The notes under the pieces are model-generated. The model searched no databases and was not told where the DNA came from. It saw nothing but the letters and a program-made list of their open reading frames with translations. The translations under genes and the position numbers were made by a program. This document shows, in pieces, positions 13,309 through 40,310 of a stretch of 64,000 nt of DNA. The stretch lies in the NCBI RefSeq assembly GCF_003334765.1, contig NZ_QOWT01000003.1, one strand, 5' to 3'. The stretch's first letter is position 1. Every line of letters starts with the position of its first letter. This DNA is from Escherichia coli (GTDB lineage Bacteria; Pseudomonadota; Gammaproteobacteria; Enterobacterales; Enterobacteriaceae).

Positions 13309-13314
13309 CTGCGG

Positions 13315-14346: not shown

Positions 14347-14559
14347 GAAAATACCTTAGTGGGTAAACGCTTACATTCTTTCAGTGTTACGGAAAACGCC
14401 CGTTGGTTCAAGGGGTGGCGTGTTTTCATCGTGGGAATGTGAGCCAAACGCAAATAAGTAAGACAAAAAAAGAGATTGCAAACCTTTGGTTACACTTTGC
14501 GAAACGCTGTTGCGATTGACCGCTGGTGGCGTTTGGCTTCAGGTTGCTAAAGTGGTGAT

Positions 14560-14641
14560 CCCAGAGGTATTGATAGGTGAAGTCAACTTCGGGTTGAGCA
14601 CATGAATTACACCAGCCTGCGCAGATGCGCAGGTTTTTTTT
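14560..14641 (+). ncRNA. omrB: Hfq-dependent sRNA OmrB
   Basis: Sequence CCCAGAGGTATTGATAGGTGAAGTCAAC...CTGCGCAGATGCGCAGG plus U-run matches OmrB as I remember it; lies in the galR-aas intergenic region. Confidence 0.85.
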
Positions 14642-14755
14642 GCCGGTCATCAATCTGTAACAGTAACCGACAATTTACACACCTCGTTGCATTTCCCTTC
14701 ATTCCTTTGCGTTTTCTCGCTGGCGAAGAGTCGTCGTGCAGACCACAATCAAGAT

Positions 14756-14843
14756 CCCAGAGGTATTGATTGGTGAGATTATTCGGTACGCTCTTCGTAC
14801 CCTGTCTCTTGCACCAACCTGCGCGGATGCGCAGGTTTTTTTT
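14756..14843 (+). ncRNA. omrA: Hfq-dependent sRNA OmrA
   Basis: CCCAGAGGTATTGATTGGTGAGATTATTCGG...CTGCGCGGATGCGCAGG plus U-run; tandem paralogue of OmrB with shared 5' and 3' ends. Confidence 0.85.
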
Positions 14844-14909
14844 CGCACCTAATTTACTGTCGCTCGCGTTCTTTATCTCGTGTAATCTCCCTCCATTCGC
14901 TTTTACTGA

Positions 14910-18276
<3,367 letters not shown>

Positions 18277-18281
18277 TATTT

Positions 18282-18303
18282 AACGCCGGTTTTAACCGGC
18301 GTT
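18282..18303. terminator. bidirectional hairpin between convergent lplT and tas
   Basis: aacgccggtt ttaa ccggcgtt palindrome. Confidence 0.5.
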
Positions 18304-18307
18304 AATC

Positions 18308-19348
18308 TTATGGTGCCGGATAAGTATAAACCTGATGCACCGCTTCAATTTCAGCTAATACGTCTTCGCTTAACTCCAGATGCAAACTTTCGATGTTAGT
18401 TTTCAGCTGATCCATCGTGGTTGCGCCCAGCAGAGTGCTGGCAACAAACGGTTGACGGCGTACAAACGCGAGCGCCATCTGAGCAGGGTCCAGGCCATGA
18501 CGTCTGGCGATATCAACATACGCCGCGACGGCTTTTTGCGTTTGCTCACCGCTATAGCGGGTGAACCGACTAAAGAGCGTATTACGTGCGCCAGCGGGTT
18601 TTGCACCATTGAGATATTTCCCGGTCAGCGTGCCGAAACCCAGGCACGAATAGGCCAGCAGTTCGACCCCTTCATACTGGCTGACTTCTGCCAGACCTAC
18701 TTCAAAACTGCGGTTTAACAGACTGTAAGGGTTCTGAATGGTGACAATACGCGGCAGATCGTGTTTGTCCGCCAGATGCAGGTAGCGCATTACGCCAAAT
18801 GCAGTTTCGTTCGACACGCCGATATAACGAATTTTTCCCGCGCGTTGGTACTCTGCCAGTGCGTCCAGCGTATCCAGCAGCGAAACCGCAGGCGCAGAAT
18901 CCGTCCAGCTATAACCGAGTTTGCCGAAGCAGTTGGTCGGGCGCTGCGGCCAGTGCACCTGATAAAGATCGAGGTAATCAGTCTGTAGGCGCTTGAGGCT
19001 GTCATGCAGCGCTTCGCGGATATTCTTCCGATCCAGCGCCTGATCCGGGCGGATGCCCTTGTCATTATTGCGCGACGGTCCGCTCACTTTGGAGGCGATA
19101 ATTAACTTTTCGCGGCTGCCATGTTTCGCCAGCCAGTTGCCGACGTAGGTTTCGGTTAACCCTTGCGTTTCGGGGCGCGGAGGTACTGGGTACATTTCGG
19201 CAACGTCGATAAGGTTAATGCCCTGAGCGACGGCATAGTCGAGTTGTGCGTGGGCGTCGGCTTCGCTGTTCTGTTCACCAAACGTCATCGTGCCAAGCCC
19301 CAGCGTGCTGACTTCCAGCGAACTGTGGGGTATACGGTGATATTGCAT
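18308..19348 (-). CDS. tas: aldo-keto reductase Tas
   Basis: 346 aa AKR-family protein; matches K-12 Tas length and position. Confidence 0.9.
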   Translation of the reverse strand: MQYHRIPHSSLEVSTLGLGTMTFGEQNSEADAHAQLDYAVAQGINLIDVAEMYPVPPRPETQGLTETYVGNWLAKHGSREKLIIASKVSGPSRNNDKGIRPDQALDRKNIREALHDSLKRLQTDYLDLYQVHWPQRPTNCFGKLGYSWTDSAPAVSLLDTLDALAEYQRAGKIRYIGVSNETAFGVMRYLHLADKHDLPRIVTIQNPYSLLNRSFEVGLAEVSQYEGVELLAYSCLGFGTLTGKYLNGAKPAGARNTLFSRFTRYSGEQTQKAVAAYVDIARRHGLDPAQMALAFVRRQPFVASTLLGATTMDQLKTNIESLHLELSEDVLAEIEAVHQVYTYPAP

Positions 19349-19455
19349 AGCCGTTTCCTTTTTATAATCACGACATAAGGAATATAAAAATGGCAGAGGG
19401 AAGGGAAAAGGGAAAGAGAAAAATCTTAAGGCCAGCCGGATGCTGACCTTATTTG

Positions 19456-19674
19456 TTAACGTTCAATAATTTGCGAAACATCATCACGGTTAATTTGCAT
19501 CGCGTTACCTTGCTGATCGTGATAACTCACCAGCCCGGTATCATCATCAATTTCAGGTTTTCCATCGGTCAAAATCATACGGCCATCTTTGGTCGCCATG
19601 ACGTAATCACTGGAACACCCGGAAACAGCAAACGCCAGTCCGACTGCAGAAATTATTACTGCCCATTTTTTCAT
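19456..19674 (-). CDS. ygdR: small lipoprotein YgdR (DUF903)
   Basis: 72 aa; lipobox AVSGC; paralogue of YgdI in this window. Confidence 0.88.
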
Positions 19675-19811
19675 CCGGTTATCCTCATTTGGCCTACCTA
19701 TGATAATAGTCTGTTTATAAACCGACGTTATATATCTTGAAAGCAGGAAAATCTTAAACTGTGAGGGTAAAAGGAGTGAGTACGCCCTCCCGCAGGAGAG
19801 CGTACGGAGTA

Positions 19812-20525
19812 TCAGAGCGGATTCTTTTTGTTGCGAATCAAGTTGAGGCTTTCAACCGCAATAGAGAAGAACATCGCGAAGTAGATGTAACCTTTCGGTA
19901 CGTGGATGTCGAAACTTTCCAGAATCAGGGTAAAGCCCACCAGAATCAGGAAAGAGAGCGCCAGCATTTTTACCGAAGGATGGCGTTCGACAAAATCACC
20001 AATCGAGCGCGCGGCGAACATCATCACGCCTACGGCAATCACCACGGCTGCCATCATAATAAACAGGTGATCTGACAGACCCACAGCCGTAATCACCGAG
20101 TCGAGGCTAAAGATAATATCCAGCAGCATAATCTGCACGATAGCGCCGAGGAATGATGAAACGCGTGTTTTCAGCCCTTCTTCTTCACCTTCAATGGATT
20201 CGTGGATTTCCTTGCTGGCTTTCCAGATAAGGAACAAGCCACCCAGAAGCAGAATCAAATCACGGGCAGAAATTTCCTGACTGAATATTGTAAAAAGCGG
20301 ATTTGTCAGGCGCGTAACCCAGGCGATTGATGCCAGCAGCGCCAGACGCATAACCATGGCTCCCGCCAACCCCAGACGGCGCGCATGAGCACGTTGTGCT
20401 GTGGGAAGCTTTGCCACCACCAGAGAAAGGAAAATAATATTGTCGATCCCAAGAACGATCTCCAGCAGCGTCAGCGTACCGAGCGCAAGCCAGGCGTTAG
20501 GATCGGTTATCCATGCAAATAACAT
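19812..20525 (-). CDS. ygdQ: TerC-family inner membrane protein YgdQ
   Basis: 237 aa polytopic membrane protein; K-12 synteny. Confidence 0.88.
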
Positions 20526-20593
20526 CTAAAAAGCCCTGCCAAAAAAATGAAGCGGTAATTATATGCCCGGAAAGCGGCAGGTCAAAGCGATGG

Positions 20594-21283
20594 CTACTGG
20601 ATCAGAAAATGACGGGCCAGTAGTGCACTGGTGAAATTCTTCTTCAAATAAAAGCCGCGTGGCAGCGTCAGAATCCGTTCGCCCCGGGCACCAATGGCTT
20701 CGGTAAGCGCTTTCGCATTCGCTGCTTTCGGTCGTATCTGTAAATACTCCCCGTGACGAGCGGTAATCCGCTCAACCTGACCGAGAACAATCATATCCAT
20801 TAATTCTTCCCAGTCTTCGCGTAGCTGCCGGTCTTCCTCTTCATTCGGGCTCCACAGCAACGGTGATCCAACGCGACGCTGCGCCAGCGGGATGCTGCGC
20901 TCGCCTTCAACCGGTATCCACAGTACGCGTTTGAGTTTGTGGCGCACGTGGCTGGTTTCCCAGGTCACCCCGCTATTGCCCGTTAACGGGGCAACACAAA
21001 CGAATGTTGTTTCCAGCGGACGACCAAGACTATCCACAGGGATAGTTTTAAGTTCCACGCCCAGAGCAGCAAAATCTTGCTCAGGTTTACTCCCTGCGCT
21101 GGCACCTAGCCAGATCTCCAGTAACACGCCAATCCAGCCTTTATCGCGTTTTAAATTCTCTGGCGTAACCAGCCCGACAAGTGCCGCCAGTTCTCCCAAT
21201 GTATAACCAGAAAGTTGCTGTGCTTGCGCTAACAACTGTTCTTCAGTTTCGGGAGGAGAGAGCAGTGGGCGAGGTTGGGACAT
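20594..21283 (-). CDS. mutH: DNA mismatch repair endonuclease MutH
   Basis: 229 aa; matches K-12 MutH length and position. Confidence 0.93.
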
Positions 21284-21439
21284 GTCATGATACCTTGATT
21301 AAAAAACAAACAGTAATTATGTGCCGAATATTCGCAGTGTAACTTTTTCCACATGCGTTGTTCAATTCTCTGATTTATATTGCTTTTTAGGTTGCCGGTA
21401 ATCGAGTTGCGCAACACTGCAACGGGTTTTCCAAATCTG

Positions 21440-21850
21440 GTCACTGAAAATAAACAGGATCTTACACCATGTTATCCACAGAAAGCTGGGATAACTGTGA
21501 AAAACCTCCACTACTGTTTCCATTTACAGCCTTGACGTGCGACGAAACTCCAGTTTTTAGTGGTTCAGTGCTTAACTTAGTGGCACATTCTGTGGATAAA
21601 TACGGCATTGGTTGATCTTTCGCCAACCCGTAAATGAGAGGTGTGACCTGGGTCACGAATTACTCTTTTTCATTACTAAAATTACATGTAATGCATTGAC
21701 TGATAATGAATATTTTAAAATGTCTATATCGGGCTTATTCAGAATGCTCCGGGTTTTCCCGTAGTAATTCCGTAGTTCTTCACAACTCTATCCACAGAAA
21801 AGGTGAATAAAAACGGCTATCCACCCCTTCCTCTGTTTATAACTCTGCAC
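21440..21850. promoter_or_regulatory. DARS2-like DnaA-reactivating sequence (cluster of DnaA boxes between mutH and rppH)
   Basis: DnaA-box matches at 21472-21480 (TTATCCACA), 21591-21599 (TGTGGATAA, reverse), 21788-21796 (CTATCCACA) and 21817-21825 (CTATCCACC) inside a 684-bp intergenic region; DARS2 is reported between mutH and ygdP(=rppH). Boundaries approximate. Confidence 0.5.
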
Positions 21851-21967
21851 ATAACTGTGAGTTATTCAATTGTTATTAGTGTGTAATGCCCTGCAGAGAG
21901 TGGTTTACCGTCTTCCTGGAGTATGAAACAATCATTCGTATATAAAGCTTTATTTTGAGGTAGTCCG

Positions 21968-22498
21968 GTGATTGATGACGATGGCTACCGCCCAAACGTA
22001 GGTATCGTGATTTGTAATCGCCAGGGGCAGGTAATGTGGGCCCGGCGATTTGGTCAGCACTCCTGGCAATTTCCGCAAGGCGGAATCAACCCCGGAGAAT
22101 CCGCAGAGCAGGCGATGTACCGTGAATTGTTTGAAGAAGTAGGATTAAGCCGCAAAGACGTTCGAATCCTTGCTTCAACGCGTAACTGGTTGCGCTACAA
22201 ATTACCGAAACGTTTGGTGCGTTGGGACACGAAGCCGGTTTGTATCGGCCAAAAACAAAAATGGTTTCTCTTGCAGCTGGTGAGCGGCGATGCAGAAATC
22301 AATATGCAAACCAGCAGTACACCAGAGTTTGACGGCTGGCGATGGGTAAGTTACTGGTATCCGGTCAGACAGGTGGTGTCATTTAAACGTGATGTCTACC
22401 GTAGGGTAATGAAAGAGTTCGCGAGTGTGGTGATGTCACTGCAGGAAAATACGCCAAAACCACAAAACGCATCTGCTTATCGACGTAAAAGAGGTTAA
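21968..22498 (+). CDS. rppH: RNA pyrophosphohydrolase RppH (NudH, Nudix)
   Basis: 176 aa; Nudix box [22 protein letters not shown]; GTG start. Confidence 0.93.
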
Positions 22499-22510
22499 GT
22501 CACGCCAATT

Positions 22511-25783: not shown

Positions 25784-25789
25784 GGAACC

Positions 25790-26767: not shown

Positions 26768-27238
26768 ATGAAAACACAACGTGGTTATACGCTGATTGAA
26801 ACGCTGGTCGCGATGCTGATTTTGGTCACGCTAAGCGCAAGTGGACTCTATGGCTGGCAATACTGGCAGCAGTCGCAACGGCTATGGCAAACCGCCAGCC
26901 AGGCGCGGGACTATTTGCTCTATTTACGTGAAGATGCCAACTGGCATAACCGCGACCACAGTATCAGCGTTATCAGGGAGGGGACGTTATGGTGCCTTGT
27001 GAGTTCCGCTGCTGGGGCCAATACCTGTCATGGCAGTTCACCATTGGTCTTTGTGCCACGCTGGCCCGAAGTCGAAATGAGCGACCTGACACCTTCGCTT
27101 GCTTTCTTTGGCCTGCGCAATACCGCATGGGCCGGGCATATTCGCTTCAAAAACTCAACGGGCGAGTGGTGGCTGGTGGTTTCGCCGTGGGGAAGACTCC
27201 GGCTTTGTCAGCAAGGAGAAACAGAAGGATGCCTGTAA
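26768..27238 (+). CDS. ppdA: prepilin peptidase-dependent protein PpdA (type IV pilin-like)
   Basis: 156 aa; N-terminal prepilin motif [16 protein letters not shown]. Confidence 0.88.
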
Positions 27239-27792: not shown

Positions 27793-28196
27793 ACCGCGAA
27801 AAGGGTGTTTCGTCACTGGCTCTGGTCCTGATGCTGCTGGTTTTGGGTAGTTTGCTATTACAAGGAATGAGCCAACAGGATCGCAGTTTTGCCTCTCGCG
27901 TGAGCATGGAAAGTCAGTCATTGCGCCGCCAGGCCATCGTTCAGTCGGCGCTGGCGTGGGGAAAAATGCACTCCTGGCAGACGCAGCCAGCAGTTCAGTG
28001 CTCGCAGTACGCTGAAACCGATGCCCAGGTTTGTTTGCGTTTACTGGCAGATAATGAAGCCTTATTGATTGCCGGTTATGAAGGCGTTTCGTTGTGGCGA
28101 ACAGGCGAAGTCATTGATGGAAACATTGTTTTTTCGCCACGCGGCTGGAGCGATTTTTGTCCGCTGAAAGAGAGGGCGTTATATCAGCTTCCCTGA
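27789..28196 (+). CDS. ygdB: pilus-assembly-like protein YgdB
   Basis: 135 aa; GTG start overlapping the ppdB stop; N-terminal hydrophobic segment. Confidence 0.82.
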
Positions 28197-28504: not shown

Positions 28505-28516
28505 TCAGGAGCCGCT

Positions 28517-31500
28517 ATGTTAAGGGTCTACCATTCCAATCGTCTGGACGTGCTGGAAGCGTTGATGGAGTTTATTGTCGAACGCGAACGGCTGGACGAT
28601 CCTTTCGAACCAGAGATGATTCTGGTGCAAAGTACCGGTATGGCACAGTGGCTGCAAATGACCCTGTCGCAAAAGTTTGGTATTGCGGCAAACATTGATT
28701 TTCCGCTGCCAGCGAGCTTTATCTGGGATATGTTCGTCCGGGTGTTACCGGAAATCCCCAAAGAGAGCGCCTTTAACAAACAGAGCATGAGCTGGAAACT
28801 GATGACTCTGCTGCCGCAATTGCTGGAGCGCGAAGACTTTACCCTGTTGCGGCATTATCTGACTGACGATAGCGACAAGCGAAAACTGTTCCAGCTTTCC
28901 TCAAAAGCGGCGGACCTGTTTGACCAGTATCTGGTCTATCGTCCGGACTGGCTGGCACAGTGGGAAACAGGACATTTGGTTGAAGGGCTGGGAGAAGCAC
29001 AGGCCTGGCAAGCCCCGTTGTGGAAGGCGCTGGTGGAATATACCCATCAACTCGGGCAACCGCGCTGGCACCGCGCCAATCTCTATCAGCGCTTTATCGA
29101 AACGCTGGAGTCCGCGACGACCTGCCCGCCGGGGTTACCTTCGCGCGTCTTTATATGCGGTATTTCCGCGTTACCGCCTGTTTATCTCCAGGCGCTACAG
29201 GCGCTGGGTAAACATATTGAAATCCATCTCCTGTTTACCAACCCCTGCCGTTATTACTGGGGCGATATTAAAGATCCTGCTTATCTGGCGAAACTGCTGA
29301 CCCGTCAGCGTCGACACAGTTTTGAAGATCGCGAATTGCCGCTATTTCGTGATAGCGAAAATGCCGGGCAGCTCTTTAACAGCGATGGTGAACAGGATGT
29401 CGGCAACCCGCTGCTGGCTTCATGGGGTAAGCTTGGGCGCGACTACATTTATCTCCTTTCTGACCTGGAGAGCAGCCAGGAGCTGGACGCCTTTGTCGAT
29501 GTCACGCCAGATAACCTGCTGCATAACATTCAGTCTGACATTCTGGAACTGGAAAACCGCGCCGTTGCTGGTGTGAACATCGAAGAGTTTTCCCGTAGCG
29601 ATAACAAACGCCCGCTTGATCCACTGGATAGCAGTATCACCTTCCACGTTTGCCATAGCCCGCAGCGTGAAGTTGAAGTTTTACACGATCGCCTGCTGGC
29701 GATGCTGGAGGAAGACCCGACACTTACTCCGCGCGACATCATCGTGATGGTGGCTGATATCGACAGCTACAGTCCGTTTATTCAGGCTGTGTTTGGTAGC
29801 GCACCTGCGGATCGTTACCTACCTTACGCCATTTCCGACCGTCGTGCGCGGCAGTCACATCCGGTACTGGAAGCGTTTATCAGCCTGTTATCACTGCCTG
29901 ACAGTCGTTTTGTGTCAGAGGATGTGCTGGCGTTGCTGGATGTGCCGGTGCTGGCGGCGCGGTTTGACATCACCGAAGAAGGGCTGCGTTATTTACGCCA
30001 GTGGGTCAACGAATCCGGCATTCGTTGGGGCATAGATGACGACAACGTTCGCGAGCTGGAACTCCCCGCCACCGGACAACACACCTGGCGATTTGGCCTG
30101 ACGCGTATGTTGTTGGGCTACGCGATGGAGAGCGCGCAGGGCGAGTGGCAATCGGTTCTACCTTATGATGAATCGAGCGGCTTAATTGCAGAACTGGTGG
30201 GGCATCTGGCTTCACTGCTAATGCAGCTAAACATCTGGCGTCGCGGGCTGGCACAGGAGCGTCCGCTGGAAGAGTGGTTGCCGGTTTGTCGCGATATGCT
30301 CAACGCCTTCTTCCTGCCGGATGCGGAAACCGAAGCGGCGATGACGCTGATCGAACAACAATGGCAGGCGATTATCGCCGAAGGTTTAGGTGCGCAGTAT
30401 GGCGACGCGGTGCCGCTGTCACTATTGCGTGATGAACTGGCACAGCGTCTGGATCAAGAACGTATCAGCCAGCGTTTTCTCGCCGGACCGGTTAACATTT
30501 GTACTCTGATGCCAATGCGTTCAATTCCGTTCAAAGTGGTTTGCCTGCTGGGAATGAACGACGGCGTTTATCCACGTCAGCTTGCGCCATTGGGCTTTGA
30601 CCTGATGAGCCAGAAACCGAAGCGTGGCGACCGTAGCCGTCGCGATGACGACCGCTATCTGTTCCTGGAAGCGTTAATTTCCGCGCAGCAAAAACTCTAT
30701 ATCAGCTATATCGGTCGTTCCATTCAGGATAACAGTGAGCGTTTCCCGTCGGTACTGGTGCAGGAACTGATCGACTACATCGGGCAAAGTCATTATCTAC
30801 CGGGCGATGAAGCGCTCAACTGTGATGAAAGCGAGGCAAGGGTAAAAGCGCATCTTACTTGCCTCCATACCCGGATGCCGTTTGATCCACAAAACTACCA
30901 GCCAGGCGAACGACAAAGCTATGCTCGTGAATGGCTACCTGCGGCCAGCCAGGCTGGTAAAGCACATTCTGAATTTGTTCAGCCGCTGCCGTTTACCTTA
31001 CCGGAAACCGTGCCGCTGGAAACGCTACAACGATTCTGGGCACATCCGGTGCGGGCATTTTTCCAGATGCGTTTGCAGGTGAACTTCCGTACTGAAGACA
31101 GCGAAATCCCCGACACCGAGCCATTTATTCTGGAAGGACTTAGCCGTTATCAAATCAATCAGCAGTTATTGAATGCACTGGTTGAGCAGGATGATGCCGA
31201 ACGCTTGTTCCGCCGCTTCCGAGCGGCAGGGGATTTACCGTATGGCGCTTTTGGTGAAATTTTCTGGGAAACACAGTGCCAGGAGATGCAGCAGCTTGCC
31301 GACAGAGTCATTGCCTGTCGCCAGCCGGGGCAGAGTATGGAAATTGATCTCGCCTGCAACGGTGTGCAGATAACTGGCTGGTTGCCGCAGGTGCAGCCGG
31401 ATGGCCTGTTGCGCTGGCGTCCCTCTTTATTAAGTGTGGCCCAGGGAATGCAACTTTGGCTGGAACACCTTGTCTACTGTGCCAGCGGTGGTAATGGTGA

Positions 31501-31885
31501 AAGTCGCCTTTTTCTACGCAAAGACGGCGAGTGGCGTTTTCCGCCGCTTGCAGCCGAACAGGCTTTGCATTACCTCTCACAACTGATTGAGGGGTATCGT
31601 GAAGGAATGTCCGCGCCATTGCTGGTGTTACCTGAAAGTGGCGGCGCGTGGCTAAAAACCTGTTATGACGCGCAAAACGATGCCATGCTGGATGACGATT
31701 CCACGTTGCAAAAAGCCCGTACGAAATTCCTTCAGGCTTACGAAGGCAACATGATGGTGCGTGGCGAAGGTGATGATATCTGGTATCAAAGGCTCTGGCG
31801 GCAATTAACACCAGAGACAATGGAGGCCATCGTTGAACAGTCGCAACGTTTCCTGTTACCGCTGTTTCGCTTTAATCAGTCATGA
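28517..31885 (+). CDS. recC: exodeoxyribonuclease V gamma subunit RecC
   Basis: 1122 aa; MLRVYHSNRLDVLEALMEFIV N-terminus; in recC-ptrA-recB-recD order. Confidence 0.96.
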   Translation: MLRVYHSNRLDVLEALMEFIVERERLDDPFEPEMILVQSTGMAQWLQMTLSQKFGIAANIDFPLPASFIWDMFVRVLPEIPKESAFNKQSMSWKLMTLLPQLLEREDFTLLRHYLTDDSDKRKLFQLSSKAADLFDQYLVYRPDWLAQWETGHLVEGLGEAQAWQAPLWKALVEYTHQLGQPRWHRANLYQRFIETLESATTCPPGLPSRVFICGISALPPVYLQALQALGKHIEIHLLFTNPCRYYWGDIKDPAYLAKLLTRQRRHSFEDRELPLFRDSENAGQLFNSDGEQDVGNPLLASWGKLGRDYIYLLSDLESSQELDAFVDVTPDNLLHNIQSDILELENRAVAGVNIEEFSRSDNKRPLDPLDSSITFHVCHSPQREVEVLHDRLLAMLEEDPTLTPRDIIVMVADIDSYSPFIQAVFGSAPADRYLPYAISDRRARQSHPVLEAFISLLSLPDSRFVSEDVLALLDVPVLAARFDITEEGLRYLRQWVNESGIRWGIDDDNVRELELPATGQHTWRFGLTRMLLGYAMESAQGEWQSVLPYDESSGLIAELVGHLASLLMQLNIWRRGLAQERPLEEWLPVCRDMLNAFFLPDAETEAAMTLIEQQWQAIIAEGLGAQYGDAVPLSLLRDELAQRLDQERISQRFLAGPVNICTLMPMRSIPFKVVCLLGMNDGVYPRQLAPLGFDLMSQKPKRGDRSRRDDDRYLFLEALISAQQKLYISYIGRSIQDNSERFPSVLVQELIDYIGQSHYLPGDEALNCDESEARVKAHLTCLHTRMPFDPQNYQPGERQSYAREWLPAASQAGKAHSEFVQPLPFTLPETVPLETLQRFWAHPVRAFFQMRLQVNFRTEDSEIPDTEPFILEGLSRYQINQQLLNALVEQDDAERLFRRFRAAGDLPYGAFGEIFWETQCQEMQQLADRVIACRQPGQSMEIDLACNGVQITGWLPQVQPDGLLRWRPSLLSVAQGMQLWLEHLVYCASGGNGESRLFLRKDGEWRFPPLAAEQALHYLSQLIEGYREGMSAPLLVLPESGGAWLKTCYDAQNDAMLDDDSTLQKARTKFLQAYEGNMMVRGEGDDIWYQRLWRQLTPETMEAIVEQSQRFLLPLFRFNQS

Positions 31886-32060
31886 GTGCTGTATAAAAAT
31901 TGCGCAATCTATCCGCTTACTTTATGATGCGCACCAGTCACGGACTGATGGTTATATAAACATAGGCTGACTCGTGCAGCACAAGATTAAATTCTGGCAG
32001 ATGATTTGCGTTAACGTGTTGAATCTGGACAGAAAATTAAGTTGATTATGAGGTCCGTGA

Positions 32061-34949
32061 ATGCCCCGCAGCACCTGGTTCAAAGCATTATTGTTGTTAG
32101 TTGCCCTTTGGGCACCCTTAAGTCAGGCAGAAACGGGATGGCAGCCGATTCAGGAAACCATCCGTAAAAGTGATAAAGATAACCGCCAGTATCAGGCTAT
32201 ACGTCTGGATAACGGTATGGTGGTCTTGCTGGTTTCTGATCCGCAGGCAGTTAAATCGCTCTCGGCGCTGGTGGTGCCCGTTGGGTCGCTGGAAGATCCC
32301 GAGGCGTACCAGGGGCTGGCACATTACCTTGAACATATGAGTCTGATGGGGTCGAAAAAGTACCCGCAGGCTGACAGTCTGGCCGAATATCTCAAAATGC
32401 ACGGCGGTAGTCACAATGCCAGCACTGCGCCGTATCGCACGGCTTTCTATCTGGAAGTTGAGAACGACGCCTTGCCTGGTGCGGTAGACCGCCTGGCCGA
32501 TGCTATTGCTGAACCTTTGCTCGACAAGAAATATGCCGAACGTGAGCGTAATGCGGTGAACGCTGAATTAACCATGGCGCGTACGCGTGACGGGATGCGC
32601 ATGGCACAGGTCAGCGCAGAAACCATTAACCCGGCACACCCCGGTTCAAAGTTTTCTGGTGGTAACCTCGAAACTTTAAGCGACAAACCTGGTAATCCGG
32701 TGCAGCAGGCGCTGAAAGATTTCCACGAGAAGTACTATTCCGCCAATTTGATGAAGGCGGTTATTTACAGTAATAAACCGCTGCCGGAGTTGGCAAAAAT
32801 GGCGGCGGACACCTTTGGTCGCGTGCCGAACAAAGAGAGCAAAAAACCGGAAATCACCGTGCCGGTAGTCACCGACGCGCAAAAGGGCATTATCATTCAT
32901 TACGTCCCTGCGCTGCCGCGTAAAGTGTTGCGCGTTGAGTTTCGCATCGATAACAACTCAGCGAAGTTCCGTAGTAAAACCGATGAATTGATTACCTATC
33001 TGATTGGCAATCGCAGCCCAGGTACACTTTCTGACTGGCTGCAAAAGCAGGGATTAGTTGAGGGCATTAGCGCCAACTCCGATCCTATCGTCAACGGCAA
33101 CAGCGGCGTATTAGCGATCTCTGCGTCTTTAACCGATAAAGGCTTGGCTAATCGCGATCAGGTTGTGGCGGCAATTTTTAGCTATCTCAATCTGTTACGT
33201 GAAAAAGGCATTGATAAACAATACTTCGATGAACTGGCGAATGTGCTGGATATCGACTTCCGTTATCCGTCGATCACCCGTGATATGGATTACGTCGAAT
33301 GGCTGGCAGATACCATGATTCGCGTTCCTGTTGAGCATACGCTGGATGCAGTCAATATTGCCGATCGGTACGATGCTAAAGCAGTAAAGGAACGTCTGGC
33401 GATGATGACGCCGCAGAATGCGCGTATCTGGTATATCAGCCCGAAAGAGCCGCACAACAAAACGGCTTACTTTGTCGATGCGCCGTATCAGGTCGATAAA
33501 ATCAGCGCACAAACTTTCGCCGACTGGCAGAAAAAAGCCGCCGACATTGCGCTCTCTTTGCCAGAGCTTAACCCTTATATTCCTGATGATTTCTCGCTGA
33601 TTAAGTCAGAGAAGAAATACGACCATCCAGAGCTGATTGTTGATGAGTCGAATCTGCGCGTGGTGTATGCGCCAAGCCGTTATTTTGCCAGCGAGCCCAA
33701 AGCTGATGTCAGCCTGATTTTGCGTAATCCGAAAGCCATGGACAGCGCCCGCAATCAGGTGATGTTTGCGCTCAATGATTATCTCGCAGGGCTGGCGCTT
33801 GATCAGTTAAGCAACCAGGCGTCGGTTGGTGGCATAAGTTTTTCCACCAACGCTAACAACGGCCTTATGGTTAATGCTAATGGTTACACCCAGCGTCTGC
33901 CGCAGCTGTTCCAGGCATTGCTCGAGGGGTACTTTAGCTATACCGCTACGGAAGATCAGCTTGAGCAGGCGAAGTCCTGGTATAACCAGATGATGGATTC
34001 CGCAGAAAAGGGTAAAGCGTTTGAGCAGGCGATTATGCCCGCGCAGATGCTCTCGCAAGTGCCGTACTTCTCGCGAGATGAACGGCGTAAAATTTTGCCC
34101 TCCATTACGTTGAAAGAGGTGCTGGCCTATCGCGACGCCTTAAAATCAGGGGCTCGACCAGAGTTTATGGTTATCGGCAACATGACCGAGGCCCAGGCAA
34201 CAACGCTGGCACGCGATGTGCAAAAACAGTTGGGCGCTGATGGTTCAGAGTGGTGTCGAAACAAAGATGTAGTGGTCGATAAAAAACAATCCGTCATCTT
34301 TGAAAAAGCCGGTAACAGCACCGACTCCGCACTGGCAGCGGTATTTGTACCGACTGGCTACGATGAATACACCAGCTCAGCCTATAGCTCTCTGTTGGGG
34401 CAGATCGTACAGCCGTGGTTCTACAATCAGTTGCGTACCGAAGAACAATTGGGCTATGCCGTGTTTGCGTTTCCAATGAGCGTGGGGCGTCAGTGGGGCA
34501 TGGGCTTCCTTTTGCAAAGCAATGATAAACAGCCTTCATTCTTGTGGGAGCGTTACAAGGCGTTTTTCCCAACCGCAGAGGCAAAATTGCGAGCGATGAA
34601 GCCAGATGAGTTTGCGCAAATCCAGCAGGCGGTAATTACCCAGATGCTGCAGGCACCGCAAACGCTCGGCGAAGAAGCATCGAAGTTAAGTAAAGATTTC
34701 GATCGCGGCAATATGCGCTTCGATTCGCGTGATAAAATCGTGGCCCAGATAAAACTGCTGACGCCGCAAAAACTTGCTGATTTCTTCCATCAGGCGGTGG
34801 TCGAGCCGCAAGGCATGGCTATTCTGTCGCAGATTTCCGGCAGCCAGAACGGGAAAGCCGAATATGTACACCCTGAAGGCTGGAAAGTGTGGGAGAACGT
34901 CAGCGCGTTGCAGCAAACAATGCCCCTGATGAGTGAAAAGAATGAGTGA
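32061..34949 (+). CDS. ptrA: protease III (pitrilysin) PtrA, M16 zinc metalloprotease
   Basis: 962 aa; signal peptide; inverted zinc motif HYLEHM. Confidence 0.95.
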   Translation: MPRSTWFKALLLLVALWAPLSQAETGWQPIQETIRKSDKDNRQYQAIRLDNGMVVLLVSDPQAVKSLSALVVPVGSLEDPEAYQGLAHYLEHMSLMGSKKYPQADSLAEYLKMHGGSHNASTAPYRTAFYLEVENDALPGAVDRLADAIAEPLLDKKYAERERNAVNAELTMARTRDGMRMAQVSAETINPAHPGSKFSGGNLETLSDKPGNPVQQALKDFHEKYYSANLMKAVIYSNKPLPELAKMAADTFGRVPNKESKKPEITVPVVTDAQKGIIIHYVPALPRKVLRVEFRIDNNSAKFRSKTDELITYLIGNRSPGTLSDWLQKQGLVEGISANSDPIVNGNSGVLAISASLTDKGLANRDQVVAAIFSYLNLLREKGIDKQYFDELANVLDIDFRYPSITRDMDYVEWLADTMIRVPVEHTLDAVNIADRYDAKAVKERLAMMTPQNARIWYISPKEPHNKTAYFVDAPYQVDKISAQTFADWQKKAADIALSLPELNPYIPDDFSLIKSEKKYDHPELIVDESNLRVVYAPSRYFASEPKADVSLILRNPKAMDSARNQVMFALNDYLAGLALDQLSNQASVGGISFSTNANNGLMVNANGYTQRLPQLFQALLEGYFSYTATEDQLEQAKSWYNQMMDSAEKGKAFEQAIMPAQMLSQVPYFSRDERRKILPSITLKEVLAYRDALKSGARPEFMVIGNMTEAQATTLARDVQKQLGADGSEWCRNKDVVVDKKQSVIFEKAGNSTDSALAAVFVPTGYDEYTSSAYSSLLGQIVQPWFYNQLRTEEQLGYAVFAFPMSVGRQWGMGFLLQSNDKQPSFLWERYKAFFPTAEAKLRAMKPDEFAQIQQAVITQMLQAPQTLGEEASKLSKDFDRGNMRFDSRDKIVAQIKLLTPQKLADFFHQAVVEPQGMAILSQISGSQNGKAEYVHPEGWKVWENVSALQQTMPLMSEKNE

Positions 34950-37900
34950 TGTCGCCGAGACACTAGATCCTTTGCGCTTGCCCTTACAGGGTGAGCGCCT
35001 GATTGAAGCCTCTGCCGGCACAGGCAAAACCTTTACGATTGCGGCGCTCTATTTGCGCCTGTTACTTGGACTAGGCGGTTCCGCCGCCTTTCCCCGCCCG
35101 CTGACCGTTGAAGAACTGCTGGTGGTCACCTTTACCGAGGCTGCCACGGCAGAATTGCGCGGTCGTATCCGTAGCAATATCCACGAGTTGCGCATCGCCT
35201 GTCTGCGTGAAACCACCGACAATCCACTGTACGAACGCCTGCTGGAAGAGATCGACGATAAAGCGCAAGCCGCGCAGTGGTTGTTGTTAGCCGAACGGCA
35301 GATGGATGAAGCGGCAGTCTTTACTATTCACGGCTTTTGCCAGCGCATGCTCAACCTGAATGCCTTTGAATCCGGCATGCTGTTTGAGCAGCAGCTGATT
35401 GAAGATGAGTCTCTGCTACGCTACCAGGCCTGCGCCGATTTCTGGCGTCGCCACTGCTACCCGCTGCCGCGTGAAATAGCCCAGGTCGTCTTTGAAACCT
35501 GGAAAGGGCCGCAGGCGTTGCTGCGCGATATTAATCGTTATCTGCAAGGCGAAGCGCCGGTTATCAAAGCACCGCCGCCCGATGATGAAACGCTGGCTTC
35601 CCGTCACGCGCAAATTGTGGCGCGTATTGATACGGTAAAACAGCAGTGGCGCGACGCAGTGGGTGAACTGGATGCGCTGATCGAATCTTCTGGTATTGAT
35701 CGACGCAAGTTTAACCGTAGCAATCAGGCTAAATGGATCGACAAGATCAGCGCCTGGGCAGAAGAAGAGACAAACAGTTATCAGTTGCCGGAGTCGCTGG
35801 AAAAATTCTCCCAGCGTTTCTTAGAAGATCGCACGAAGGCCGGGGGGGGAACCCCGCGACATCCACTGTTTGAGGCGATCGATCAACTGCTTGCAGAACC
35901 ATTGTCGATCCGCGATCTGGTGATCACCCGCGCATTGGCTGAGATCCGCGAAACAGTAGCGCGTGAAAAACGCCGCCGTGGCGAATTGGGTTTTGATGAC
36001 ATGTTAAGTCGGCTCGATTCCGCGCTGCGTAGCGAAAGCGGTGAGGTGTTGGCAGCGGCGATCCGTACGCGATTCCCGGTGGCAATGATCGATGAATTTC
36101 AGGATACCGACCCCCAGCAGTACCGAATTTTTCGCCGTATCTGGCACCATCAGCCGGAAACCGCATTGTTGCTAATTGGCGACCCGAAGCAGGCCATATA
36201 TGCATTCCGGGGTGCGGATATCTTCACTTATATGAAGGCGCGTAGCGAAGTTCACGCCCACTACACTTTAGACACCAACTGGCGTTCCGCACCAGGAATG
36301 GTGAACAGCGTGAATAAGCTTTTCAGCCAGACTGATGACGCGTTCATGTTTCGCGAAATACCGTTTATTCCAGTGAAATCAGCCGGGAAAAATCAGGCGT
36401 TACGTTTTGTATTTAAAGGTGAAACACAGCCTGCGATGAAAATGTGGCTGATGGAAGGCGAAAGCTGCGGCGTTGGCGATTATCAAAGTACCATGGCGCA
36501 GGTATGTGCTGCGCAAATCCGCGACTGGCTACAAGCCGGACAGCGGGGCGAAGCGTTGCTGATGAACGGCGACGACGCGCGTCCGGTGCGTGCTTCGGAC
36601 ATCAGTGTGCTGGTGCGCAGCCGCCAGGAGGCCGCCCAGGTGCGCGATGCCTTAACGTTGCTGGAAATCCCTTCCGTTTACCTTTCGAACCGCGACAGTG
36701 TTTTTGAAACTCTGGAAGCGCAGGAAATGCTTTGGTTGTTGCAGGCGGTGATGACGCCCGAACGTGAGAACACCCTGCGTAGTGCGCTGGCAACGTCAAT
36801 GATGGGGCTGAACGCGCTGGATATCGAAACGCTGAACAATGACGAACATGCGTGGGATGTGGTAGTCGAAGAGTTCGATGGTTATCGGCAAATCTGGCGC
36901 AAACGTGGCGTTATGCCGATGCTGCGGGCGCTGATGTCGGCGCGTAACATTGCTGAAAACTTGCTGGCAACGGCAGGCGGTGAGCGGCGTCTTACCGATA
37001 TCTTGCATATCAGCGAACTGCTACAAGAAGCCGGAACGCAGCTGGAAAGTGAACATGCGCTGGTACGCTGGTTATCGCAACATATCCTCGAGCCAGACAG
37101 TAATGCCTCCAGCCAACAAATGCGTCTCGAAAGTGATAAACATCTGGTGCAGATTGTCACGATCCACAAATCGAAAGGGCTGGAATATCCATTGGTCTGG
37201 CTGCCGTTTATCACCAATTTCCGCGTCCAGGAGCAGGCGTTTTATCACGATCGCCACTCGTTTGAGGCAGTTCTGGATCTTAATGCTGCGCCAGAAAGCG
37301 TCGACCTCGCGGAGGCCGAACGTCTGGCGGAAGATCTGCGTTTGCTTTACGTGGCGCTGACACGTTCGGTTTGGCATTGCAGTCTCGGCGTTGCACCGCT
37401 GGTGCGCCGTCGTGGCGATAAAAAAGGTGACACCGACGTCCACCAAAGTGCGCTCGGGCGTTTGCTGCAAAAAGGGGAACCGCAAGATGCGGCAGGGCTT
37501 CGCACCTGTATTGAAGCGTTATGCGATGATGATATTGCCTGGCAAACGGCACAAACTGGTGATAACCAACCCTGGCAGGTTAATGATGTTTCTACAGCAG
37601 AGCTGAATGCGAAGACGTTACAACGATTGCCCGGCGATAACTGGCGCGTCACCAGCTACTCTGGTTTGCAACAGCGTGGTCACGGTATCGCCCAGGATTT
37701 GATGCCTCGGCTGGATGTCGATGCTGCAGGCGTTGCCAGCGTCGTTGAAGAACCGACGTTAACACCACATCAGTTTCCGCGCGGTGCGTCACCGGGGACG
37801 TTCTTGCACAGTTTGTTTGAAGACCTGGATTTTACCCAGCCGGTTGACCCGAACTGGGTGCGGGAAAAACTGGAACTCGGCGGCTTTGAATCGCAGTGGG

Positions 37901-38484
37901 AACCGGTATTGACCGAGTGGATCACGGCTGTCCTCCAGGCACCTCTCAATGAAACCGGCGTAAGCCTGAGTCAACTTTCCGCCCGCAATAAACAGGTGGA
38001 GATGGAGTTTTATCTGCCGATTAGTGAACCGCTTATCGCCAGTCAGCTTGATACGTTAATCCGCCAGTTTGACCCGCTATCCGCAGGCTGCCCGCCGCTG
38101 GAGTTCATGCAGGTACGTGGCATGTTAAAAGGCTTTATCGACCTGGTGTTCCGCCACGAAGGGCGTTATTACCTGCTCGACTATAAATCCAACTGGTTGG
38201 GTGAAGACAGTTCGGCTTACACCCAACAGGCTATGGCAGCGGCAATGCAGGCACACCGCTATGATCTGCAATATCAGCTTTATACCCTGGCGCTGCATCG
38301 TTATCTGCGCCATCGCATTGCTGATTACGACTATGAGCACCACTTTGGCGGCGTTATTTATCTGTTCCTGCGTGGCGTTGATAAAGAACATCCGCAACAG
38401 GGGATTTACACAACCCGACCCAACGCCGGGTTGATTGCCCTGATGGATGAGATGTTTGCCGGTATGACCCTGGAGGAGGCGTAA
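34942..38484 (+). CDS. recB: exodeoxyribonuclease V beta subunit RecB (helicase-nuclease)
   Basis: [30 protein letters not shown] Walker A; 1180 aa from ATG 34942; overlaps the ptrA stop. Confidence 0.96.
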
Positions 38485-40310
38485 TGAAATTGCAAAAGCA
38501 ATTACTGGAAGCTGTGGAGCACAAACAGCTACGCCCGCTGGATGTGCAATTTGCCCTGACCGTGGCGGGAGATGAACATCCTGCCGTCACCCTCGCGGCG
38601 GCACTGTTAAGTCATGATGCCGGAGAGGGACACGTTTGTTTGCCGCTTTCACGACTGGAAAATAACGAGGCGTCGCATCCGCTGTTGGCGACCTGTGTCA
38701 GTGAAATCGGTGAGCTACAAAATTGGGAAGAATGCTTGCTGGCTTCTCAAGCGGTCAGCAGGGGAGATGAACCCACGCCGATGATCCTCTGTGGCGATCG
38801 TCTTTATTTGAATCGCATGTGGTGTAACGAGCGCACAGTGGCACGCTTTTTCAACGAAGTGAATCATGCCATTGAGGTTGATGAAGCTCTACTGGCGCAA
38901 ACCCTGGACAAACTTTTTCCAGTAAGCGATGAAATTAACTGGCAAAAAGTTGCGGCGGCAGTGGCGCTGACGCGGCGGATCTCGGTGATTTCCGGCGGCC
39001 CTGGCACCGGTAAAACGACCACCGTAGCGAAGTTGCTGGCAGCGTTAATTCAAATGGCCGACGGCGAACGCTGCCGTATCCGTCTGGCTGCACCAACGGG
39101 TAAAGCTGCCGCGCGCTTAACCGAATCTCTCGGCAAGGCTTTGCGACAGTTACCGCTGACCGATGAACAAAAGAAACGCATTCCGGAAGATGCCAGCACT
39201 TTGCACCGATTGCTGGGCGCGCAGCCGGGTAGCCAGCGTTTACGTCATCATGCCGGTAACCCGCTGCATCTTGATGTGCTGGTGGTAGATGAAGCGTCAA
39301 TGATCGATCTGCCTATGATGTCGAGACTGATCGACGCCTTGCCCGATCATGCGCGAGTGATCTTTCTCGGCGATCGTGATCAACTGGCCTCGGTTGAGGC
39401 TGGGGCTGTGCTGGGCGATATCTGCGCTTATGCCAACGCGGGCTTTACCGCCGAGCGTGCCAGGCAGCTAAGCCGCCTGACGGGGACTCACGTTCCGGCA
39501 GGAACCGGCACAGAAGCGGCATCTTTGCGCGACAGTCTCTGCCTGCTGCAAAAAAGCTATCGTTTCGGCAGCGATTCTGGCATTGGTCAGTTAGCTGCGG
39601 CGATCAACCGTGGTGATAAAACGGCAGTGAAAACCGTTTTTCAGCAGGATTTTACTGATATCGAAAAACGGCTTTTACAGAGCGGCGAAGATTATATTGC
39701 GATGCTTGAGGAAGCTCTTGCGGGTTACGGACGTTATCTGGATCTGCTGCAAGCGCGTGCCGAGCCGGATTTAATCATTCAGGCGTTCAATGAGTACCAG
39801 CTTTTGTGCGCCCTGCGGGAAGGGCCGTTTGGCGTGGCTGGACTGAATGAGCGAATTGAGCAGTTTATGCAACAGAAGCGCAAAATTCATCGTCATCCGC
39901 ACTCTCGTTGGTACGAAGGTCGACCGGTGATGATTGCCCGTAATGACAGCGCGCTTGGGTTGTTTAATGGCGATATCGGTATTGCGCTGGATCGCGGGCA
40001 GGGGACGCGCGTCTGGTTTGCGATGCCGGACGGCAATATTAAGTCTGTGCAACCGAGTCGCTTGCCAGAGCACGAAACTACGTGGGCGATGACGGTACAT
40101 AAATCGCAGGGATCGGAGTTCGACCATGCGGCGTTGATTTTGCCGAGCCAACGCACGCCGGTAGTAACGCGAGAGCTGGTTTATACCGCGGTGACCCGCG
40201 CGCGTCGCCGTCTGTCGCTGTATGCCGATGAGCGCATATTAAGTGCGGCAATCGCCACTCGTACTGAGCGGCGCAGTGGTCTGGCGGCGTTGTTTAGTTC
40301 ACGGGAATAA
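38484..40310 (+). CDS. recD: exodeoxyribonuclease V alpha subunit RecD
   Basis: 608 aa; Walker [11 protein letters not shown]; start overlaps the recB stop (TAATG). Confidence 0.96.

What the first reader, a model, noticed from the sequence alone, without database searches (positions are those of the whole stretch)
14522..39285. Chi octamers seem confined to one strand
By eye I find GCTGGTGG on the + strand at 14522, 17403, 17745, 27172, 35118 (inside recB) and 39278 (inside recD), and no convincing reverse-complement copy (CCACCAGC). That fits Chi enrichment on the leading strand if this + strand is the leading strand for this replichore.
Basis: seen in the sequence. Interest (0 to 1): 0.25.

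Follow-up and report, generated by a model that had tools for sequence, protein, structure and literature searches.

The report
Chi sites polarised on leading strand
All eight copies of the E. coli recombination signal Chi in this window sit on the strand copied continuously during replication, which is the well-known genome-wide arrangement that lets the RecBCD repair enzyme rescue broken replication forks, so the finding is real but ordinary.

Summary
An exhaustive count finds 8 GCTGGTGG on the + strand and 0 on the - strand. The window is E. coli, about 99.97% identical to K-12 MG1655 at roughly 2.927-2.991 Mb, reverse-complemented. Positive GC skew and 5:0 KOPS motifs show that + is the leading strand. 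Seven sites lie in the sense strand of +-oriented genes, all in the frame nnG-CTG-GTG-Gnn (Leu-Val); the eighth lies over the omrB promoter. A synonymous-codon shuffle predicts 3.0 on + and 1.6 on -, so the excess on + is significant, but zero on - is not (P about 0.16-0.19). In 600 kb sampled from both K-12 replichores, Chi is 82.5% on the leading strand, the sign flips between replichores, and Chi has the largest strand asymmetry of all octamers. Leading-strand copies are enriched about 3-fold whichever way the host gene points. Same-composition octamers reach only 60%, and CTGGTG-sharing neighbours at most 65%. This is the textbook polarity of Chi, already known, and the window is a typical example.

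The parts
14522..14529 (+). Chi octamer. The only intergenic copy, in the galR/aas spacer, 31-38 nt upstream of the OmrB 5' end.
   Evidence: Conserved in all 6 comparison strains.
17403..17410 (+). Chi octamer in lplT, sense strand, frame ACG-CTG-GTG-GGT (T-L-V-G).
   Evidence: Changed to GTTGGTGG (synonymous Leu) in strains K-15KW01 and BLSE177, which carry another + strand Chi at about 17543.
17745..17752 (+). Chi octamer in lplT, sense strand, frame TCG-CTG-GTG-GGC (S-L-V-G).
   Evidence: Conserved in all 6 comparison strains.
27172..27179 (+). Chi octamer in ppdA, sense strand, frame TGG-CTG-GTG-GTT (W-L-V-V).
   Evidence: Changed to GCTAGTGG in BLSE177 only.
29029..29036 (+). Chi octamer in recC, sense strand, frame GCG-CTG-GTG-GAA (A-L-V-E).
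   Evidence: Changed to GTTGGTGG in 3 of 6 comparison strains.
32267..32274 (+). Chi octamer in ptrA, sense strand, frame GCG-CTG-GTG-GTG (A-L-V-V).
   Evidence: Conserved in all 6 comparison strains.
35118..35125 (+). Chi octamer in recB, sense strand, frame CTG-CTG-GTG-GTC (L-L-V-V).
   Evidence: Conserved. The 3' flank at nt 4-7 is CCTT, the disfavoured pyrimidine class of PMC5041463.
39278..39285 (+). Chi octamer in recD, sense strand, frame GTG-CTG-GTG-GTA (V-L-V-V). It is the first correctly oriented Chi met by RecBCD travelling leftward from anywhere in the 30.9-kb Chi-free tract to its right.
   Evidence: Conserved. The 3' flank at nt 4-7 is ATGA, the most purine-rich of the eight.
28517..31885 (+). 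recC, 1122 aa, intact. This is the RecBCD subunit that recognises Chi.
   Evidence: Annotation; the ORF translates cleanly. The role in Chi recognition comes from PMC8022716 and PMC5041463.
34942..38484 (+). recB, 1180 aa, intact. Helicase-nuclease subunit of RecBCD.
38484..40310 (+). recD, 608 aa, intact. Fast helicase subunit of RecBCD.
5531..5538 (+). KOPS-type octamer GGGNAGGG, one of five. The others start at 19398, 39817, 39996 and 48854. All five are on +, so they mark the oriC-to-dif direction independently of Chi.
   Evidence: 5 on +, 0 on -.

Best explanation
These are ordinary chromosomal Chi sites of E. coli, showing the species' normal replication-linked polarity. The window lies on the replichore where forks travel left to right, so the + strand is the G-rich leading strand. 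RecBCD loads at a double-strand end and reads Chi only on the strand that ends 3' at its entry point, approaching 5'-GCTGGTGG-3' from the 3' side. All eight sites are therefore active only for an enzyme travelling right to left, towards oriC. That is the direction RecBCD takes from the one-ended break left by a collapsed replication fork. At Chi the enzyme stops degrading, nicks the DNA and loads RecA, so the broken arm can re-invade its sister and the fork can restart. Most copies are written as the common Leu-Val codon pair CTG-GTG in genes co-oriented with replication, which is the cheapest way to encode the signal. The strand preference itself follows replication direction, not transcription. 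Shown here: the counts, the strand, the reading frames, the replichore assignment, the sign flip between replichores, the excess over codon and composition nulls, and its independence from gene orientation. Taken from the literature or inferred: RecBCD's direction of reading, the link to fork collapse, and that selection maintains the pattern.
For: (1) Counts are 8:0 in the window. (2) + is the leading strand by GC skew, by map position against K-12 and by KOPS at 5:0. (3) RecBCD is encoded intact in the same window. (4) In 600 kb of K-12 there are 120 Chi, 1 per 5.0 kb. The split is 6:50 on the window's replichore and 49:15 on the other, 82.5% leading overall, and the GC-skew sign matches in all 12 segments. 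(5) Chi has the largest leading-minus-lagging difference of all octamers: 78, against 41 for the next, which overlaps Chi. (6) Against a synonymous-codon shuffle, leading-strand Chi is enriched 3.15-fold in the sense strand of co-oriented genes (83 vs 26.3, z = 13.4). It is enriched 2.96-fold in the antisense strand of head-on genes (16 vs 5.4, z = 4.6). Lagging-strand Chi is at the null (20 vs 14.6) or below it (1 vs 5.3). The null predicts 61.5% leading against 82.5% observed. (7) The 167 other octamers of the same base composition are 59.8% leading (Fisher P = 1.9e-7 against Chi). Octamers sharing the CTGGTG core show little or no skew, for example GCTGGTGA at 42:41. (8) In the window, the 24 one-mismatch variants are 72:61. 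(9) In five other E. coli strains the sites turn over by synonymous changes, but every Chi in this 25 kb, including a gained one, is on +. (10) The literature states the same polarity and rationale (PMC8022716, PMC10025158, PMC5041463).
Against: Within the window alone, zero copies on the - strand is not significant: 1.6-1.9 are expected, and P(0) is 0.16-0.19. Seven of eight sites share one codon frame in co-oriented genes, so this window cannot separate replication from transcription by itself; that separation rests on the K-12 sample. My gene orientations in that sample come from a greedy ORF caller with 94% strand agreement with the window's annotation, not from the annotation itself. No experiment here shows that any of the eight sites is active. 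None has the most favourable 3' flank described in PMC5041463. Whether selection for fork repair is the ultimate cause remains debated (Uno 2000 and Uno 2006, cited in PMC2684129; PMC10025158 proposes a role in completing replication).
Confidence: 0.93

Rival explanations
1. The polarity is a pure by-product of gene orientation plus codon usage. Chi is just the frequent Leu-Val di-codon CTG-GTG flanked by G, so it appears on + because most genes here are on +. No replication-linked or RecBCD-linked cause is needed.
For: All 7 genic sites are in the sense strand of + genes, in the single frame nnG-CTG-GTG-Gnn. Within 14522-39285, 88% of coding bases are on +. The codon-shuffle null already gives a 65:35 split in the window and 61.5% leading in K-12. 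Uno et al. 2006 attributed Chi over-representation to a di-codon increase (reference seen).
Against: With protein sequence and each gene's codon counts held fixed, sense Chi in + genes is 7 against 2.31 expected (P = 0.0065). In K-12 it is 83 against 26.3 (z = 13.4). Head-on genes, with the same genetic code and similar usage, carry 3.4-fold fewer sense Chi per kb (P = 7e-8). Instead they carry a 3-fold excess of antisense Chi, which again lies on the leading strand. Octamers with the same CTGGTG core but a different first or last base are not comparably skewed.
Confidence: 0.04
2. [quoted passage not shown]
For: GC skew is positive across the window. Octamers of the same composition as Chi are 60% on + in the window (225:149) and 59.8% leading in K-12. 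Uno et al. 2000 argued exactly this (reference seen).
Against: Chi is 82.5% leading against 59.8% for its 167 permutations (Fisher P = 1.9e-7). It is about 5 times more abundant than their mean (120 vs 22.4). It ranks first of all octamers for absolute strand asymmetry. One-mismatch variants in the window are 72:61.
Confidence: 0.02
3. It is a chance fluctuation in a small sample: eight sites happen to fall on one strand.
For: There are only 8 events. The - strand expectation is below 2. The region boundaries were chosen after looking at the data.
Against: 8:0 under 50:50 gives P = 0.008. Under the codon null, P(at least 7 on + and 0 on -) = 0.007. The same polarity appears in 11 of 12 independent K-12 segments, the twelfth being tied 4:4, with the sign set by the replichore. 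It also holds in five other strains at this locus.
Confidence: 0.01

Closest known systems
Chi (crossover hotspot instigator, 5'-GCTGGTGG-3') sites of E. coli and their leading-strand polarity, read by RecBCD
   Same: The octamer is exact, the host is E. coli, and intact recB, recC and recD lie in the window. Density in the species sample (1 per 5 kb) matches the published figure of about 1 per 5 kb and about 1000 sites (PMC8022716, PMC5041463). The polarity on the leading strand matches the published statements (PMC8022716, PMC10025158).
   Different: Nothing of substance differs. Local density is somewhat low (8 in 64 kb, against about 13 expected), because the sites cluster in 25 kb flanked by two long Chi-free tracts.
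KOPS / FtsK-orienting polar sequences (GGGNAGGG)
   Same: This is another G-rich octamer polarised on the leading strand from oriC to dif. In this window it is 5:0 on the same strand as Chi.
   Different: It is read by FtsK on double-stranded DNA for chromosome segregation and dimer resolution, not by RecBCD. The sequence is different, and it serves here only as an independent marker of direction.
Generic skewed G-rich oligomers (Salzberg 1998; Uno 2000)
   Same: Chi is G-rich and shares the background leading-strand preference of about 60% shown by same-composition octamers.
   Different: Chi exceeds that background in both abundance (5-fold) and skew (82.5% against 59.8%), and it tops the ranking of all octamers.
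Chi-like motifs proposed for other Enterobacteriaceae (GCTGGCGG, GCTGCTGG, GGTGGTGG, GCTGGAGG; PMC8022716)
   Same: Each differs from Chi by one mismatch, and all occur in the window.
   Different: They are not polarised here: 7:12, 9:8, 3:2 and 2:5. GCTGGCGG is 95:67 in the K-12 sample, which is background level.

Membership tests
E. coli Chi sites (RecBCD-regulating octamers) | Exact sequence 5'-GCTGGTGG-3' on one strand | tested here: met
   Eight exact matches on +, none on -.
E. coli Chi sites (RecBCD-regulating octamers) | The host encodes a RecBCD enzyme whose RecC subunit reads this octamer | tested here: met
   The window is E. coli, about 99.97% identical to K-12. recC, recB and recD are intact ORFs of 1122, 1180 and 608 aa.
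E. coli Chi sites (RecBCD-regulating octamers) | Statistical over-representation relative to composition and coding constraints | tested here: met
   Window: 8 against 2.1 in dinucleotide shuffles, and 7 against 2.97 in the codon shuffle. K-12 sample: 3-fold over the codon null on the leading strand, and 5-fold over same-composition octamers.
E. coli Chi sites (RecBCD-regulating octamers) | Polarity: the octamer lies on the leading strand, with the sign switching between replichores | tested here: met
   The window is 8:0 on the G-rich, KOPS-bearing strand. K-12 is 6:50 on one replichore and 49:15 on the other.
E. coli Chi sites (RecBCD-regulating octamers) | Enrichment in core DNA relative to recently acquired DNA | tested here: inconclusive
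   There is no Chi in the low-GC ETT2-remnant genes at 1-5 kb (GC 0.35), nor in the 26.6-kb gap that includes them. The sample is too small to test.
E. coli Chi sites (RecBCD-regulating octamers) | Orientation-dependent recombination hotspot activity, with attenuation of RecBCD nuclease | not testable with these tools
   This needs genetic crosses, RecA ChIP-seq or in-vitro RecBCD cutting. The 3' flanks at nt 4-7 are tabulated and none belongs to the most active class in PMC5041463.
KOPS (FtsK-orienting polar sequences) | GGGNAGGG polarised towards dif on the leading strand | tested here: met
   5 on +, 0 on -. Used only as a marker of direction; Chi itself does not match this consensus.
Generic GC-skew-driven oligomer bias | A skew no greater than that of composition-matched oligomers | tested here: not met
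   Chi is 82.5% leading against 59.8% for the controls, Fisher P = 1.9e-7.

The most novel reading that the evidence does not exclude
The Chi cluster at 14.5-39.3 kb is bracketed by two of the longest Chi-free tracts in my sample. They measure 26.6 kb on the oriC side and 30.9 kb on the terminus side, and only 3 of 110 gaps exceed 15 kb. The most novel reading not excluded is that such Chi deserts are functional or selected, rather than the tail of a random spacing distribution plus a horizontally acquired island. One example would be regions where broken forks are resected for tens of kb before the first correctly oriented Chi, here inside recD, rescues them. A weaker variant is that the Chi over the omrB -35 region couples recombination or repair to sRNA promoter function.
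Probability: 0.03. Interest if true: 0.3.

Novelty: already known. Interest (0 to 1): 0.07.

Why it matters
It matters little as a discovery. Chi's over-representation and its leading-strand polarity in E. coli have been known since the K-12 genome sequence and are stated in current papers (PMC8022716, PMC10025158). The result is useful as a positive control for the scan: a reader without tools located six of eight sites exactly and inferred the replichore correctly. The follow-up also gives a compact, reproducible demonstration that the polarity tracks replication direction rather than gene orientation, codon usage or G-richness alone.

Tried and rejected
(1) Gene orientation plus codon usage as the full explanation. 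Rejected by the synonymous-codon shuffles and by the split between co-oriented and head-on genes. (2) General G-rich oligomer skew. Rejected by the 168 same-composition octamers and the NCTGGTGN family. (3) Chance. Rejected. (4) Chi inside recB, recC and recD as something special. Three copies in 8.7 kb of co-oriented coding sequence against 2.46 expected is not unusual. (5) Degenerate or Chi-like variants sharing the polarity. They do not in this window, at 72:61. (6) 3'-flank context from PMC5041463. Tabulated, but none of the eight falls in the top-activity class and no conclusion can be drawn. (7) Cross-genus conservation of the sites, for example in Salmonella. I chose not to spend the single genome-contig scan (about 50 CPU-hours) on a phenomenon that is already known. 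Comparison within E. coli has low power because divergence is at most 2.2%. (8) A whole-genome count in the source strain was not possible, since retrieval is limited to 50 kb per call. I sampled 600 kb of K-12 instead.
Full report
OBSERVATION. An exhaustive search of the 64,000-base window finds GCTGGTGG eight times, all on the + strand: 14522, 17403, 17745, 27172, 29029, 32267, 35118 and 39278. Its reverse complement CCACCAGC does not occur (repeated). It missed 29029 and 32267. Dinucleotide-preserving shuffles give 2.1 +/- 1.4 copies on both strands together, and none of 100 reaches 8.

WHAT THE WINDOW IS. Megablast places the region in every one of 5,426 complete E. coli genomes. The window is about 99.97% identical to K-12 MG1655, with 21 mismatches in 64 kb. 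It aligns to the reverse complement of roughly 2.927-2.991 Mb.

From left to right the genes are:
- yqeK to yqeG (ETT2 remnant, GC 0.35), yqeF, kduID, araE, ygeA, lysR, lysA, galR, omrB/omrA, aas, lplT;
- tas, ygdR, ygdQ, mutH, rppH, ptsP, lgt, thyA, ppdAB-ygdB-ppdC, recC, ptrA, recB, recD;
- argA, amiC, tRNA-fMet, mltA, tcdA, csdEA, ygdI, gcvB, gcvA, ygdD, rlmM, the fuc operon, xni, sdaBC and ppnN.

The statements 'inside recB' and 'inside recD' are correct.

WHICH STRAND IS THE LEADING STRAND. Three lines of evidence agree that it is +.
- GC skew is positive in almost every 4-kb window, and cumulative skew rises monotonically to 1.42. The leading strand of E. coli is the G-rich one (PMC2684129).
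- The K-12 position lies on the replichore between the terminus and oriC, where forks move towards lower K-12 coordinates. That is left to right in the window.
- KOPS (GGGNAGGG), a different polar motif, is 5:0 on +.

My own K-12 sample brackets the two switch points. All six segments from 1.90 to 3.55 Mb have negative skew on the K-12 + strand. All six from 4.10 Mb through 0 to 1.35 Mb have positive skew.

ANATOMY OF THE SITES. Seven of the eight sites lie in the sense strand of +-oriented genes: lplT (twice), ppdA, recC, ptrA, recB and recD. All seven are in the same reading frame, nnG-CTG-GTG-Gnn, which encodes Leu-Val with the commonest codons. The eighth, at 14522, is intergenic. It lies 31-38 nt upstream of the OmrB 5' end, over the expected -35 region.

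Coding-strand usage differs along the window:

| Segment | Coding bases on + |
|---|---|
| 1-14521 (Chi-free) | 55% |
| 14522-39285 (all eight Chi) | 88% |
| 39286-64000 (Chi-free) | 40% |

IS IT MORE THAN CODONS AND GENE ORIENTATION? I shuffled synonymous codons within each gene 2,000 times, keeping protein sequences and each gene's codon counts fixed. Results for coding sequence in the window:

| Class | Observed | Null mean | P |
|---|---|---|---|
| + strand Chi | 7 | 2.97 | 0.023 |
| - strand Chi | 0 | 1.58 | P(0) = 0.19 |
| Sense Chi in + genes | 7 | 2.31 | 0.0065 |
| At least 7 on + together with 0 on - | - | - | 0.007 |

So the excess on + is significant, and the absence on - is not significant by itself. 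The window alone cannot separate replication from transcription, because nearly all the sites are in co-oriented genes.

SPECIES-LEVEL TEST. I fetched twelve 50-kb segments of K-12 MG1655, six per replichore. They hold 120 Chi, 1 per 5.0 kb. The split is 6:50 (K-12 +:-) on the window's replichore and 49:15 on the other. Overall 99 are leading and 21 lagging, or 82.5%. Three of the twelve segments have no lagging-strand Chi at all, so a window with 8:0 is unremarkable: P(8 of 8 leading at 0.825) = 0.215.

I split the counts by gene orientation, using a greedy ORF caller with 94% strand agreement with the window's annotation:

| Class | Strand it falls on | Density per kb | Comparison |
|---|---|---|---|
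| Sense Chi, co-oriented genes | leading | 0.281 | P = 7e-8 against the row below |
| Sense Chi, head-on genes | lagging | 0.082 | |
| Antisense Chi, head-on genes | leading | 0.061 | P = 1.3e-4 against the row below |
| Antisense Chi, co-oriented genes | lagging | 0.003 | |

Against a codon shuffle of the same genes:

| Class | Strand | Observed | Null | Ratio |
|---|---|---|---|---|
| Sense, co-oriented | leading | 83 | 26.3 | 3.15 (z = 13.4) |
| Antisense, head-on | leading | 16 | 5.4 | 2.96 (z = 4.6) |
| Sense, head-on | lagging | 20 | 14.6 | 1.37 (not significant) |
| Antisense, co-oriented | lagging | 1 | 5.3 | 0.19 (8 of 300 shuffles as low) |

The polarity therefore follows replication direction whichever way the host gene points.

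IS IT JUST G-RICHNESS? No.
- Of the 168 octamers with Chi's base composition, Chi is the most abundant (120 against a mean of 22.4).
- Chi is 82.5% leading against 59.8% for the other 167 pooled (Fisher P = 1.9e-7).
- Among all octamers in the 600 kb, Chi has the largest leading-minus-lagging difference: 78, against 41 for the next, which overlaps Chi.
- Octamers that share the CTGGTG core but differ at either end show little or no skew: GCTGGTGA 42:41, GCTGGTGC 49:26, TCTGGTGG 34:26, ACTGGTGG 18:13 and CCTGGTGG 25:15.
- In the window, same-composition octamers are 225:149, or 60%, and the 24 one-mismatch variants are 72:61.

CONSERVATION. All eight sites are present in K-12 and in two of five more divergent E. 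coli strains, whose identity in this region ranges from 97.8% to 99.1%. Five sites are invariant in all six comparison strains. The losses are single synonymous Leu changes:
- 29029 becomes GTTGGTGG in three strains.
- 17403 becomes GTTGGTGG in two strains.
- 27172 becomes GCTAGTGG in one strain.

The two strains that lost 17403 carry another + strand Chi at about 17543. No strain has a - strand Chi in these 25 kb. Power is low at this divergence.

MECHANISM. These statements come from established knowledge and the cited papers and were not tested here. RecBCD enters at a double-strand end, and RecC scans the strand that ends 3' at the entry point. Chi is recognised only when approached from its 3' side. 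The enzyme then nicks a few nucleotides 3' of Chi, attenuates its nuclease and loads RecA (PMC5041463, PMC10025158, PMC8022716). With all eight sites on +, only an enzyme moving right to left, towards oriC, will see them. That is the direction taken from the one-ended break produced when a left-to-right fork collapses, and it is the rationale given for the leading-strand bias in PMC10025158. An enzyme moving towards the terminus would cross the whole window without meeting a Chi. In K-12 the nearest - strand copies are at about 89.6 and 97.4 kb in window coordinates.

The sites are probably not equally active. Their 3' flanks at nt 4-7 are TTGG, TTGG, CCAG, CGCC, ATAC, CCGT, CCTT and ATGA. None belongs to the purine-rich class that PMC5041463 found most active.

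LOCAL DENSITY. Using the K-12 rates and the window's coding-strand content, I expect 11.3 leading and 1.9 lagging Chi. The observed counts are 8 and 0, and both are within the normal range. recC, recB and recD together are expected to hold 2.46 sense Chi and hold 3, so Chi inside the genes for its own reader is a coincidence of gene length and orientation.

The cluster is flanked by Chi-free tracts of 26.6 kb on the left, which spans the low-GC ETT2 remnant, and 30.9 kb on the right, from recD to gudP. These are two of only three gaps above 15 kb among the 110 in my sample. This is a post-hoc observation. An exponential spacing model predicts several gaps of this size per genome.

COMPARISON WITH WHAT IS KNOWN, AND VERDICT. 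Every defining feature of E. coli Chi that can be tested by computation is met: the exact octamer, the cognate RecBCD, over-representation, and replichore-dependent polarity. Hotspot activity cannot be tested with these tools. The phenomenon is textbook knowledge: about 1000 sites, about 1 per 5 kb, polarised on the leading strand (PMC8022716, PMC5041463, PMC10025158). The earlier objections that it reflects G-rich oligomer bias or a di-codon effect (Uno 2000, Uno 2006; references seen) account for a baseline of roughly 60%, but not for the full effect in my data. Interest is low.

Noticed in passing
window 14522-14529, with OmrB at 14560-14641 (+) and OmrA at 14756-14843 (+): The only intergenic Chi lies at -38 to -31 from the OmrB 5' end. 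That is over the expected -35 region and just downstream of GTTACA-like (OmpR-box-like) repeats. The paralogous position upstream of OmrA reads GCTGGCGA, two mismatches from Chi. The site is conserved in all six comparison strains.
   Followed up: partly
window 43262-43338 (-): The window has a single initiator tRNA-Met between amiC and mltA. K-12 (metZ, metW, metV) and FORC 064 have three 110-bp tandem units there, a 220-bp difference. Only 226 of 5,426 complete E. coli genomes align across this junction in one place. The reduced copy number is therefore a minority state, or a collapsed tandem repeat in the assembly.
   Followed up: partly
window 39286-64000, continuing to about 69.9 kb in K-12; and K-12 sequence from about -12.0 kb to window 14521: The Chi cluster is flanked by tracts with no Chi on either strand: 30.9 kb on the right (recD to gudP) and 26.6 kb on the left. 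These are two of only three gaps above 15 kb among the 110 gaps in the 600-kb K-12 sample. About 4.3 Chi would be expected in the window's 24.7-kb share of the right tract (P(0) about 0.013, post hoc).
   Followed up: partly
window 1-5100: This is a low-GC block (0.35 over the first 4 kb) holding yqeK, yqeJ, yqeI, yqeH, yqeG and a frameshifted ygeF. It is the ETT2 type III secretion island remnant. It has no Chi and only weak GC skew, as expected of acquired DNA.
   Followed up: no
window 5531, 19398, 39817, 39996, 48854 (+): KOPS-type octamers GGGNAGGG are 5:0 on the + strand. This is a second polar motif agreeing with the replichore assignment.
   Followed up: yes
window 18000-22000, 52000-56000 and 60000-64000: GC skew dips to zero or slightly negative exactly over the blocks of - strand (head-on) genes: tas-ygdR-ygdQ-mutH, the fucPIKUR operon, and sdaCB-ppnN. 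This shows the transcription-linked component of skew superimposed on the replication-linked one.
   Followed up: no
window 28181-28183 (ppdC start): Both RefSeq annotations (K-12 b2823 and FORC 064) start ppdC at an ATA codon. An in-frame TTG lies 24 nt upstream at 28157. The prepilin-like motif [11 protein letters not shown] follows shortly after.
   Followed up: no
window-wide; K-12 sample L004-L015: GCTGGCGG was proposed as a second Chi-like motif of Enterobacteriaceae in PMC8022716. It is not polarised here: 7 on + and 12 on - in the window, and 95:67 (59% leading) in the K-12 sample, which is background level. GCTGCTGG is 9:8 in the window.
   Followed up: partly
L016 and L020 (strains K-15KW01 and BLSE177), about window-equivalent 17543: The strains that lost the lplT Chi at 17403 through a synonymous CTG to TTG change carry a different + strand Chi about 140 bp downstream. 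This looks like site turnover with the polarity kept, but with only two related strains it may be a single event.
   Followed up: no
window 44766-44808 (+) and 47824-48029 (-): Rfam matches to the ES036 (CssrF) sRNA, between mltA and tcdA, and to GcvB, divergent from gcvA. Both are above their gathering scores.
   Followed up: no
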